From the human T2T-CHM13v2.0 reference genome, Homo sapiens: a DNA stretch of 64,000 bases. The DNA lies in the NCBI RefSeq assembly GCF_009914755.1, contig NC_060928.1; one strand, given 5' to 3'. Below are positions 23,781-25,884 of this stretch, one piece after another. The position numbers and the translations under genes are program-made. Position 1 is the stretch's first letter. Each line of letters begins with the position of its first letter. Under the pieces are notes generated by a model that worked only from the letters and a program-made list of their open reading frames with translations, did not search any database and had not been told where the DNA came from.

Positions 23781-23916
23781 GGATGAGGCTGTGGAAGACC
23801 GTGTACTGCGTGTCGTGCGGGGGGATCGAGTACTTCCCATTGACTATTCGAAGTTTCGCTCCATCCTCAAAAGGGTGCTGCCGGAAGCACAGCAGGTACA
23901 AGATGCAGCCCAGGGC
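23781..23916 (-). CDS. GAK: GAK exon 8 (ALGCILYLLCFRQHPFEDG...VFHSLI-R), 136 nt
   Basis: ccccgcag|GCCCTG ... CTCATCC|gtaagt. Confidence 0.96.
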
Positions 23917-24362
23917 CTGCGGGGAGAGCAGGGGTGATGCCTAGGCCCACGGGGAGCGCAGGGGTGACGCCTGGGCCTGCGGGGAGAGCAGGGGTGATGC
24001 CCAGGCCCACGGGGAATGCAGGGGTGACATCGGAGCCGTGGGGAGCGCAGGGGTGACACTGGGGACTGCAGGGAACACAGGGGTGATATCGGGAACATGG
24101 GAAATGCAGGGGTGACACCGGGGCCTGCGGGAACAACAGGGGTGACACCCGGGCCGCGGGGAGCGCAGGGGTGACGTTGGGGCCGTGGGGAGCGCAGGGG
24201 TGACGCCTGGGCCTGTGGGGAGTGCAGGGGTGACAACCAGGCCTGCGGGGAATGCAGGGGTGACGTCGGAGCCGTGGGGAGCGCAGGGGTGACTCCTGGG
24301 CCTGCGGGGAGTGCAGGGGTGACTCCCAGGTCTGAGGGGAGAGCAGGGGTGATGCCCGAGCC
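23908..24362. repeat. VNTR of ~30-bp units x~15, overlapping the exon 8 acceptor
   Basis: gggcctgcggggagagcaggggtga.gcc with periodicity 30 (23931, 23961, 23991, 24021...). Confidence 0.93.
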
Positions 24363-24607
24363 CAAGGGGACAAGGGCGTGAGAGGAGCACCGCAGACATG
24401 GTGACTGGCCGAGGGGTGGCTCCTTCCTTGGGGATCCTAGGGGTATAGTCGGTGGTTACACAAACATCACTTGACTGTGCGGAGCTGGCGGCGTGCTTCC
24501 CACGGCACGGGGAGGCCTGGATGCTCCACTTCTATTCACCGCAAAGAACTGTCCAGGTGACAGTGTTAAACGGACTCTAGGCTCTTAAGATTAAAAAGTT
24601 CCGTTCA

Positions 24608-24888
24608 GGCCGGGCGCGGTGGCTCACGCCTGTAATCCCAGCACTTTGGGAGGCCGAGGCGGGTGGATGACAAGGTCAGGAGTTCAAGACCAGCCTGGCC
24701 AACATGGTGAAATCCCGTCTCTACTAAAAATACAAAAATTAGCCAGGCGTGGTGGTGCATGCCTGTAGTCCCAGCTACTCAGGAGGCTGAGGCAAAGAAC
24801 TGCTTGAACCCGGGAGGCAGAGGTTGCAGTGCGCCGAGATCGCGCCACTGCCCTCCAGCCTAGCAACAAAGCGAGACTCTGTCTCAAA

Positions 24889-24923
<35 letters not shown>

Positions 24924-24924
24924 G
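24608..24924 (+). mobile_element. Alu with (AAAT)n tail
   Basis: Full Alu; TSD-like gttcc(g/t)ttca on both sides. Confidence 0.93.
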
Positions 24925-25884
24925 GTTCCTTTCAAAATTCCGGGGTTCCCACACTCATGCACTGAAGATCTATGAGCTGGTGGGACCAGCACAGACCCTG
25001 CTGTGTGCTATGCGAGGGGCAAGGCACCTGTCCTGTCCTTGGCAACAGCAGAGATCCACTTTTCAGAACTGACCCCATATGCAGGGTGTAGGGCACAGGG
25101 CAGAAGCTGCAGGAAGCAGCCTCCTCAGTCTGCTCAGGATTTTCGCAGAACTGGCCTTGAACAATCAGCGACTTCTCGTCAATCACCCAATATGTGAGCC
25201 CAGAGAAGGGACTGGTGATTACTTCGGCATCAGGATCTTATCCAGCCAAGAGTAAGAGCTCACACCGGGACCCCAGGCCGAGCAAGAGCCGGCCAGGAGT
25301 GTCCTCGTGCGGGATGTGCAGAGGACCAGTCACCAGGGTGGGCCAAGAACACAGGCAATGACCACACACGTGGCCCCATCCTTCCACACTCCTCAAGGGA
25401 CACAGGGCCTCAGCCTACAGCCCACATACTGTCTCAGCCTGCAGCCCCACGTGCTGTCTCAGCCTTCAGCCCATGTGCTGTGGCTGATGGCACGGCTGAC
25501 CCGGTCCGTAGGCAAATACACTACGGAGGGCCAACTGCCGCACCTGGTGGCTGAATGACGGGGTAAGGGGACGTCAAAAGAACCACAAGGCAGGACACCC
25601 TCCACGCGTGGTCACCCTCGGTCAATGGGGACATGGCCTTGGAGAGATGCAGGGATGAGGGAGGACGCAGGAGACCACCCCAGCCATCAGGCTCAGCCCT
25701 CACTCTGGCCTGGCTCTGAGCGCAGCAAGGCTGGGGTGTGGCAGGGACACTCCTGGGCCAAGGCACTCAGGGCCAGATGCACAACAAGCCATGGACGGGG
25801 CCGAGGGGAGCCTCAGGCAGACCCAGCCGCACAGGACGCCCCCAACTGCTACTCGACTCATCCCTATTAGAAGTAGTCAAGGTT

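What the first reader, a model, noticed from the sequence alone, without database searches (positions are those of the whole stretch)
23917..24362. Exon 8 acceptor is the last unit of a 30-bp array; an identical decoy acceptor 60 nt upstream is a poison site
Seen: the real acceptor (atcacccctgctctccccgcag|GCCC) is reproduced exactly at 23977-23978. Further CAG|GCC copies sit near 24125, 24213, 24243 and 24302, and each unit has its own TCAC branch-like motif about 19 nt upstream. Splicing to the 60-nt upstream copy is in frame but reads AQASPLRSPWA* (TAG at 23943-23941), truncating the kinase C-lobe. Inference: the spliceosome must bypass several equivalent upstream 3' splice sites, and unit gain or loss could shift productive versus NMD splicing.
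Basis: partly seen in the sequence, partly recalled or inferred. Interest (0 to 1): 0.7.

Follow-up and report, generated by a model that had tools for sequence, protein, structure and literature searches.

The report
GAK exon 8 acceptor repeated in minisatellite
The splice acceptor of human GAK exon 8 is the last unit of a 15-unit, 30-base intronic repeat that holds look-alike acceptors upstream, one of them identical, but nothing available here shows that cells ever use them.

Summary
GAK is on the minus strand. Its intron 7 ends in a 15-unit, 30-nt C-rich tandem array (24352..23917), and the last unit supplies exon 8's TCAC branch-like motif, pyrimidine tract and CAG.

- **Decoy:** unit 13 repeats the real site over 29 nt (-25..+4). 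Its AG lies 60 nt upstream. Splicing there stays in frame and reads AQASPLRSPWA*, with the stop 160 nt before the next junction.
- **Other copies:** six more units carry a CAG at the same place (18-22 of 23 positions identical). All six shift the frame.
- **Missed AGs:** CCCAG at 23972-71 and CCTAG at 23942-41 lie between decoy and real site. The second would add 8 residues with no stop.
- **Uniqueness:** the unit occurs nowhere else in this genome. None of the 17 other GAK acceptors in the window has such a copy.

Use of the decoys is untested. The supplied RefSeq table lists no exon of any other transcript in the array. Two SF3B1-mutant junction tables, one NMD isoform table and two tandem-repeat QTL tables hold no such GAK entry. 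Predicted RNA structure does not separate decoy from real site.

The closest precedent is the ABCA7 intron-18 VNTR. Its second unit's donor is used at about 2%, is NMD-sensitive and does not depend on array length.

Most likely this is a duplicated acceptor module giving at most minor NMD-degraded by-products.

The parts
23917..24352 (-). 15-unit, 29-30-nt tandem array at the 3' end of GAK intron 7. It is C-rich in the transcript (214 C of 436 nt, 30 runs of four or more C) with GC 0.709.
   Evidence: the unit pattern is found only here genome-wide (11 of 11 matches)
23917..23937 (-). Unit 15, the authentic exon 8 3' splice-site module: TCAC (A at 23935, position -19), a 16-nt C-rich pyrimidine tract, and CAG with AG at 23918-23917.
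   Evidence: the annotation table supplied with the task gives exon 23781-23916
23781..23916 (-). GAK exon 8 (136 nt, phase 0), starting ALGCILY in kinase subdomain IX. Its first 4 nt are identical to what follows the decoy AG, and 6 of its first 7 match.
   Evidence: the TRF array boundary at 23913 lies inside the exon
23973..24001 (-). 29-nt exact copy of -25..+4 of the real acceptor (unit 13). The decoy AG is at 23978-23977 and the branch-like A at 23995.
23941..23943 (-). TAG in unit 14 with three roles. It is the stop codon of the 60-nt and 54-nt extensions. It is also the nearest upstream AG, 22 nt before the real AG. Used as an acceptor, it would give an in-frame 8-residue insertion (ASPLLSPQ). 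Unit 12 has TGG at the same place.
23971..23972 (-). Second AG (CCCAG|GCG), 6 nt after the decoy AG. It gives a 54-nt extension with the same stop.
24302..24303 (-). Unit 2 CAG|GCC, 22/23 identical; extension 385 nt, frame +1, stop.
24243..24244 (-). Unit 4 CAG|GCC, 21/23 identical; extension 326 nt, frame +2, stop.
24213..24214 (-). Unit 5 ACAG|GCC, 21/23 identical; extension 296 nt, frame +2, stop.
24125..24126 (-). Unit 8 CAG|GCC, 20/23 identical; extension 208 nt, frame +1, stop.
24332..24333 (-). Unit 1 TCAG|ACC, 21/23 identical; extension 415 nt, frame +1, stop.
24066..24067 (-). Unit 10 GCAG|TCC, 18/23 identical; extension 149 nt, frame +2, stop.
24353..24381 (-). Degenerate unit-like stretch (TCACGCCCTTGTCCCC...GGGCA) just upstream of unit 1. 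It marks the older, decayed end of the array.
   Evidence: read by eye from the flank printed; no statistic was run

Best explanation
The 3' end of GAK intron 7 is a locus-specific GC-rich minisatellite. It grew by tandem duplication of the exon 8 acceptor module itself: branch-like TCAC, a 16-nt C-rich pyrimidine tract, CAG, and the first 4-9 nt of the exon. The newest step was a 60-nt two-unit duplication next to the exon, which left an exact copy of the acceptor 60 nt upstream.

Inferred: the spliceosome uses the last unit because only it is directly followed by real exon 8 sequence and lies nearest the exon 8 donor (exon definition). The AG-free stretch before the real AG is only 22 nt, so the branch point for productive splicing must lie in unit 15, most likely the A at -19 (23935). 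A decoy AG is reached only if U2 engages the branch-like site of that decoy's own unit.

Such events would extend exon 8 by 60 nt (or 54 nt), or by 149-415 nt. All of these run into premature stops and would be removed by NMD. I expect them to be minor by-products of the order of a percent, not a regulated switch. I also expect changes in unit number to have little effect on their share.

Shown: the anatomy, the identity of the copies, the reading frames and the uniqueness of the repeat. Inferred: the origin by duplication across the intron-exon junction, the basis of site choice, and the level of use.
For: ANATOMY AND IDENTITY.

ORIGIN BY DUPLICATION ACROSS THE JUNCTION.
- The array boundary lies 4 nt inside a protein-constrained exon (TRF start 23913).
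- Units 12+13 match units 14+15 plus the first 9 exon nt at 54 of 60 positions. Likeness past the AG fades after +7.
- The unit exists nowhere else in the genome (11 of 11 pattern matches in this array; the 23-mer occurs twice, both here).

BRANCH POINT. The AG-free stretch is 22 nt, and TCAC has its A at -19 in every CAG unit.

EXTENSION, NOT PSEUDO-EXON. No GT in the array matches the donor consensus better than 5/9, whereas 17 of the 18 real GAK donors checked score 6/9 or more.

LOW USE.
- The supplied RefSeq table (47 GAK transcripts) lists no alternative exon in the array.
- No intron-7 GAK row appears in Alsafadi 2016 (one GAK row, elsewhere in the gene) or DeBoever 2015 (0 rows).
- GAK is absent from the held supplements of Karousis 2021.

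PRECEDENT. In ABCA7 the first unit of a 25-bp C-rich intronic VNTR holds the exon 18 donor. The donor one unit further in is used at 2 +/- 1%, rises with cycloheximide, and is not affected by VNTR size (passages read).
Against: - No RNA data of any kind were examined, so use could be higher than I expect. NMD would hide it from annotation and from steady-state tables.
- By the 23-nt window that common 3' splice-site scores read, decoy and real site are identical.
- Predicted RNA accessibility is the same for both. The unpaired probabilities, decoy then real, are 0.99 and 0.96 at the branch A, 0.64 and 0.67 over the tract, and 0.00 and 0.02 at the AG. Nothing computed here explains the preference.
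- A 196-nt extended exon is still an ordinary size for exon definition.
- The supplements searched may be cut where held, and some files could not be read.
- The age and origin of the array could not be tested against other species or other human assemblies.
Confidence: 0.6

Rival explanations
1. The decoys are a working poison 3' splice-site system. A substantial or regulated share of GAK pre-mRNA is spliced to unit 13 or other units and destroyed by NMD. VNTR alleles or splicing-factor state (SF3B1, U2AF1) tune GAK dosage.
For: - The decoy is identical over 29 nt and has its own branch-like A at -19.
- Every decoy leads to a premature stop.
- Predicted accessibility is equal for decoy and real site.
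- The ABCA7 precedent shows that a neighbouring unit's splice site is really used and is NMD-sensitive.
- A review states that SF3B1 mutation alters a GAK splice variant.
Against: - The SF3B1-linked GAK junction for which coordinates were found lies at the 3' end of the gene, not in intron 7. DeBoever 2015 has no GAK row.
- The decoy sits 60 nt upstream, outside the 10-30-nt range typical of SF3B1-mutant cryptic sites (recalled).
- The supplied RefSeq table lists no exon of another transcript in the array.
- In ABCA7 the analogous event was about 2% and independent of length.
- GAK is absent from two tandem-repeat QTL supplements as held.
Confidence: 0.12
2. The array is a binding platform in the pre-mRNA. 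Its 30 C-runs recruit poly(C)-binding proteins (PCBP1/2, hnRNP K). Its repeated tract-plus-AG modules hold U2AF close to exon 8, raising use of an otherwise U-poor acceptor. The decoys then help the real site.
For: - 214 C of 436 nt and 30 runs of four or more C in the transcript sense.
- The real tract has only 3 U in 16 nt.
- Pre-mRNAs with two alternative 3' splice sites can bind two U2AF molecules at once (abstract).
- That PCBPs promote splicing at C-rich tracts is recalled, not checked here.
Against: - No binding data were examined.
- The same abstract reports that concurrent occupancy of two 3' splice sites inhibits splicing, the opposite of help.
- The upstream units are diverged (73% matches), as expected without selection.
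Confidence: 0.1
3. The decoys act as a brake. Several units are occupied at once by U2AF or U2 without leading to catalysis, which slows removal of intron 7 (a detained or retained intron). The cost is kinetic rather than mis-splicing.
For: Concurrent occupancy of two 3' splice sites inhibits splicing in vitro (abstract of Chen et al. 2017). Eight modules lie within 436 nt.
Against: No intron-retention data were examined. Nothing in the supplied table marks intron 7 as retained. The idea rests on one in-vitro study of two sites.
Confidence: 0.08

Closest known systems
ABCA7 intron 18 VNTR (De Roeck et al. 2018, PMC5954066; passages read)
   Same: Both are C-rich intronic minisatellites (25 bp versus 30 nt) that abut an exon, with the terminal unit containing the constitutive splice site. 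In ABCA7 the next unit offers a copy of that site, and its use retains one unit, shifts the frame and gives an NMD-sensitive transcript (2 +/- 1%, raised by cycloheximide). Both lie in a gene at a neurodegeneration GWAS locus. That GAK/TMEM175 is a Parkinson's disease locus is mentioned.
   Different: ABCA7 concerns the donor (GT at the start of each unit). GAK concerns the acceptor, and each unit carries a whole branch-tract-AG module. In ABCA7 use, length polymorphism (12 to about 427 units) and disease association were measured; for GAK none of these is known. The identical GAK copy lies two units away and stays in frame, so it is 'poison' only because of one TAG in unit 14.
Splice sites and introns born from tandem arrays (Zhuo, Madden, Elela and Chabot 2007 PNAS; seen only as a reference, content recalled. 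De Grassi and Ciccarelli 2009, PMC2812944; passages read)
   Same: Internal tandem repeats multiply splice-site sequences and can activate cryptic sites.
   Different: Those studies describe arrays that create new introns or alternative exons that are seen in transcripts. Here an old constitutive acceptor has been copied upstream, and no transcript evidence exists.
Cryptic 3' splice sites in SF3B1-mutant cells (Alsafadi 2016, supplement searched; DeBoever 2015, supplement searched)
   Same: An upstream AG with its own upstream branch site. The TAG at 23942-1 lies 24 nt before the real site, within the usual distance range (recalled).
   Different: The identical decoy is 60 nt away. The one reported GAK event is elsewhere in the gene. 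The TAG follows a G-interrupted tract (0.67 pyrimidine versus 0.83 for the real site).
Tandem repeats between branch point and acceptor that change splicing through spacing (Hamanaka et al. 2023, PMC10078293; passages read)
   Same: A polymorphic repeat lies at a 3' splice site.
   Different: That mechanism changes the branch-to-AG distance. Here each unit brings its own branch-like site at a fixed 19 nt, so spacing at the real site does not change with unit number. GAK is not in that paper's held supplements.

Membership tests
Minisatellite / VNTR | Head-to-tail units of about 10-100 bp | tested here: met
   TRF gives period 30, 15.4 copies, score 342. Fifteen units were parsed.
Minisatellite / VNTR | Copy number varies among individuals | not testable with these tools
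   Only one human assembly is held. No paper on this array was found. GAK is absent from the held supplements of two tandem-repeat QTL studies.
NMD-coupled alternative 3' splice site (poison site) | AG preceded by a pyrimidine tract and a plausible branch site | tested here: met
   Unit 13 is identical to the real site over -25..+4. Six more CAGs match at 18-22 of 23 positions. TCAC has its A at -19.
NMD-coupled alternative 3' splice site (poison site) | Use creates a stop more than 50-55 nt upstream of a later exon junction | tested here: met
   TAG at 23943-23941 lies 160 nt before the exon 8 donor at 23781. All out-of-frame copies also hit stops. The rule itself is recalled.
NMD-coupled alternative 3' splice site (poison site) | Junction reads show that the site is used and that the product rises when NMD is blocked | not testable with these tools
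   No RNA-seq access. Indirect checks were negative: the supplied RefSeq table.
ABCA7-type VNTR that contains a splice site | The array abuts the exon and its terminal unit holds the constitutive splice site | tested here: met
   Unit 15 ends at the AG 23918-17. The array boundary at 23913 lies inside the exon.
ABCA7-type VNTR that contains a splice site | The neighbouring unit's site is used in cells, and array length is linked to splicing or disease | not testable with these tools
   No transcript or genotype data are available.
SF3B1-mutant cryptic 3' splice site | Cryptic AG 10-30 nt upstream of the canonical AG (range recalled) | tested here: not met
   The identical decoy is 60 nt upstream. 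Only the weak TAG at -25/-24 lies in range.
SF3B1-mutant cryptic 3' splice site | Reported in SF3B1-mutant junction tables | tested here: not met
   Alsafadi 2016 has 1 GAK row, at hg19 chr4:844889-845537, which is not intron 7. DeBoever 2015 has 0 rows. Wang 2016 is not held.
NAGNAG tandem acceptor | Two AGs 3 nt apart | tested here: not met
   The paired AGs in units 2, 5 and 13 are 6 nt apart (CAGGCCCAG). The real site has CAGGCCCTG.

The most novel reading that the evidence does not exclude
The array is length-polymorphic or sequence-polymorphic in people. Alleles differ in how much GAK pre-mRNA is lost to the unit-13 decoy, or converted to an in-frame kinase-dead insertion form when the unit-14 TAG is TGG or when the TAG itself serves as acceptor. 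GAK dosage would then vary by allele, and this would contribute to the Parkinson's disease association at GAK/TMEM175. That would make it the acceptor-side counterpart of the ABCA7 VNTR.
Probability: 0.04. Interest if true: 0.75.

Novelty: new member of a known kind. Interest (0 to 1): 0.35.

Why it matters
- **Test case for site choice.** If the decoys are used, this is a natural experiment on how a human spliceosome chooses between two 3' splice sites identical over 29 nt and 60 nt apart. Common splice-site scores read -20..+3, which is identical at the two sites, so they cannot separate them.
- **Hidden variation.** GAK lies at a Parkinson's disease GWAS locus. GC-rich repeats of this kind are poorly covered by short reads; the ABCA7 study met low mapping quality over its VNTR. 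The ABCA7 case shows that such arrays can hide functional variation.
- **Practical warning.** If the decoys are not used, the finding still matters for variant interpretation and read mapping at the exon 8 acceptor. A single G/A difference in unit 14 decides between a stop and a 20-residue in-frame insertion.

Tried and rejected
- **RNA structure masking the decoy: rejected.** In a partition-function fold of 861 nt (maximum pair span 150), units 13 and 15 are equally accessible.
- **Pseudo-exon (poison cassette) inside the array: unlikely.** No GT in the array exceeds 5/9 matches to the donor consensus.
- **Recursive splicing: rejected by eye.** The decoys read CAG|GCC, so a junction there regenerates no GT.
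- **Dispersed repeat family or part of a mobile element: rejected.** The unit pattern and the 23-mer occur only here in the genome. Rfam finds nothing in the array, only Alu-derived SRP-like matches at 24609-24887.
- **PRDM9 13-mer: absent on both strands.**
- **The SF3B1-linked GAK event is not this site.** Coordinates place it at the 3' end of the gene.
- **Literature.** Six searches on GAK with VNTR, tandem repeat, SF3B1, cryptic or alternative 3' site, and sQTL found nothing on intron 7. A search for duplicated 3' splice sites found nothing useful.
- **Supplement look-ups with no GAK row:** DeBoever 2015, Bakhtiari 2021 (one file unreadable), Hamanaka 2023 (one file not searched), Karousis 2021.
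- **Papers not held:** Wang 2016, Darman 2015, Zhuo 2007.
- **Not done.** No splice-site score such as MaxEntScan or SpliceAI could be run. No other human assembly and no other species could be compared.

Full report
**What is there.** GAK runs on the minus strand. Read in that sense, the last 436 nt of intron 7 (24352..23917) form 15 head-to-tail units of 29-30 nt, each beginning TCACCCCTG. Tandem Repeats Finder reports the array at 23913-24370 with period 30, 15.4 copies, 73% matches and score 342. It also reports higher-order periods of 59 and 89. A 17-nt unit motif with up to 3 mismatches is found 14 times in the 64-kb window, all inside the array. The chance expectation is 0.54. A degenerate unit pattern matches 11 places in the whole assembly, all in this array. 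This is therefore a locus-specific minisatellite, not a dispersed family. Rfam has nothing for it.

**The acceptor and its copies.** Assembling the annotated coding parts shows that exon 8 (23916..23781) starts in phase 0, after 741 coding nt or 247 codons, and reads ALGCILY. The authentic module is unit 15: TCAC with its A at -19, a 16-nt C-rich tract, and CAG.

- Unit 13 is identical to unit 15 at 23 of 23 positions over -20..+3.
- The identical stretch runs 29 nt, 24001..23973 against 23941..23913.
- That 23-mer occurs exactly twice in the 3.1-Gb assembly.
- The TAG (23943-23941) lies 160 nt before the exon 8 donor, so the transcript would qualify for NMD by the 50-55-nt rule (recalled).
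- Six more units have CAG at the same position. These are units 1, 2, 4, 5, 8 and 10, with 21, 22, 21, 21, 20 and 18 of 23 positions identical. All are out of frame.
- None of the 17 other GAK acceptors in the window has any upstream AG within 600 nt matching its own 23-mer at 16/23 or better.

Two further AGs lie between the decoy and the real site.

- CCCAG|GCG, 6 nt after the decoy AG, gives a 54-nt extension with the same stop.
- CCTAG|GCA at 23942-1 is 24 nt before the exon.

The second one has three consequences.

- It limits the AG-free stretch before the real AG to 22 nt. On the first-AG-after-the-branch-point rule (recalled), the productive branch point must then lie inside unit 15.
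- Used as an acceptor, it would insert eight residues (ASPLLSPQ) between W and A of the DIWALG motif, with no stop.
- The same A is what makes the 60-nt extension a poison. Unit 12 has TGG there. With TGG, the extension would be a 20-residue in-frame insertion.

**Origin (inferred).** The array does not stop at the intron boundary. TRF places its end 4 nt inside the exon. Units 12+13 match units 14+15 plus the first nine exon bases at 54 of 60 positions, and likeness after the AG fades beyond +7. The exon start encodes a kinase motif and is constrained. The simplest reading is that duplications straddling the intron-exon junction copied the acceptor upstream, most recently as a 60-nt two-unit step. 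Further upstream the units are more diverged and show a three-unit pattern: units 2 and 5 share 28/30 positions, and units 3 and 6 share 27. A decayed unit-like stretch precedes unit 1 (read by eye). I could not test this model against other species or other human assemblies.

**Why the last unit?** Nothing I computed separates unit 13 from unit 15.

- The 23-nt window read by common scores is identical at both.
- Predicted accessibility is the same for both. The unpaired probabilities, decoy then real, are 0.99 and 0.96 at the branch A, 0.64 and 0.67 over the tract, and 0.00 and 0.02 at the AG.

The difference must lie downstream of +4. The real site is followed directly by exon 8 and lies 136 nt from its donor. 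The decoy is followed by 60 nt of array sequence (G triplets, C runs and a UAGG), which would be unusual exon content. This is inference from exon-definition principles (recalled). The array contains no credible donor: the best GT scores 5/9 against the consensus, while 17 of 18 real GAK donors score 6/9 or more. Any decoy use would therefore extend exon 8 and not create a cassette exon. Chen et al. 2017 (abstract read) report that two alternative 3' splice sites can be occupied at once by two U2AF or two U2, and that this inhibits splicing. A kinetic cost is therefore a rival reading.

**Is it used?** I could not look at RNA data. The indirect evidence is negative but weak.

- The supplied RefSeq table (47 GAK transcripts) lists no alternative exon in 23917-24362.
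- A review says SF3B1 mutation alters a GAK variant. The only GAK row in the Alsafadi 2016 junction table is hg19 chr4:844889-845537, at the gene's 3' end.
- DeBoever 2015 has no GAK row.
- GAK is absent from the held supplements of Karousis 2021 (NMD isoforms), Bakhtiari 2021 and Hamanaka 2023. Some of those files were unreadable or possibly cut.
- Six literature searches found nothing on this array or on an exon 8 alternative acceptor.

**Comparison with what is known.** The nearest precedent is the ABCA7 intron 18 VNTR. It is a 25-bp C-rich array whose first unit holds the exon 18 donor. The donor one unit further in is used, retaining 25 nt and giving a frameshift. That isoform was 2 +/- 1% in all tissues tested, rose with cycloheximide, and did not depend on VNTR length. 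What did depend on length was skipping of the next exon. GAK shows the same design at an acceptor, with whole branch-tract-AG modules. This raises the prior that the unit-13 site is used at a low level. It lowers the prior that unit number tunes that use. It also points to exon 8 skipping or intron 7 retention as things to measure against array length. The general idea that tandem arrays multiply splice sites is in print: Zhuo et al. 2007, seen only as a reference, and De Grassi and Ciccarelli 2009.

**Verdict.** I file it as a new member of a known kind, namely an intronic minisatellite that contains a constitutive splice site and offers copies of it. Interest is moderate (0.35). It is a clean natural case of identical competing acceptors in a Parkinson's-locus gene, and public RNA-seq and long-read assemblies could settle it quickly. 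No evidence of function exists today.

Noticed in passing
window 24602-24929: An Alu lies about 250 nt upstream of the array. It is sense on the + strand (Rfam SRP-like matches at 24609-24723 and 24742-24887, + strand), so it is antisense in the GAK pre-mRNA. This is the orientation known (recalled) to be prone to exonisation.
   Followed up: no
window 23951-24309, + strand: The template strand of the array carries G-quadruplex-type motifs: 3 with loops of 7 nt or less and 7 with loops of 12 nt or less. The transcript strand is 49% C with 30 runs of four or more C. CpG is depleted, 26 observed against 46.6 expected.
   Followed up: partly
outside the window, GAK 3' end (hg19 chr4:844889-845537): The only SF3B1-mutant-associated GAK acceptor junction found in print (Alsafadi 2016 supplement; log2 fold change 2.55, adjusted p 7e-10) lies near the last exons of GAK, not in this window.
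   Followed up: no
window 23781 (exon 8 donor) and 42559 (exon 3 donor): The exon 8 donor reads TCC|GTAAGT, with no consensus match in the last three exon bases. The exon 3 donor, ATG|GTATCC, matches only 5/9 and is the weakest of the 18 GAK donors checked.
   Followed up: no
window 24027-23938 (units 12-14): Units 12 and 14 are a distinct sub-type (CCCCGTGGGCCTRGGCA) carrying G triplets. They differ by the single G/A that creates the TAG, an extra AG and a UAGG word between the decoy and the real acceptor.
   Followed up: partly
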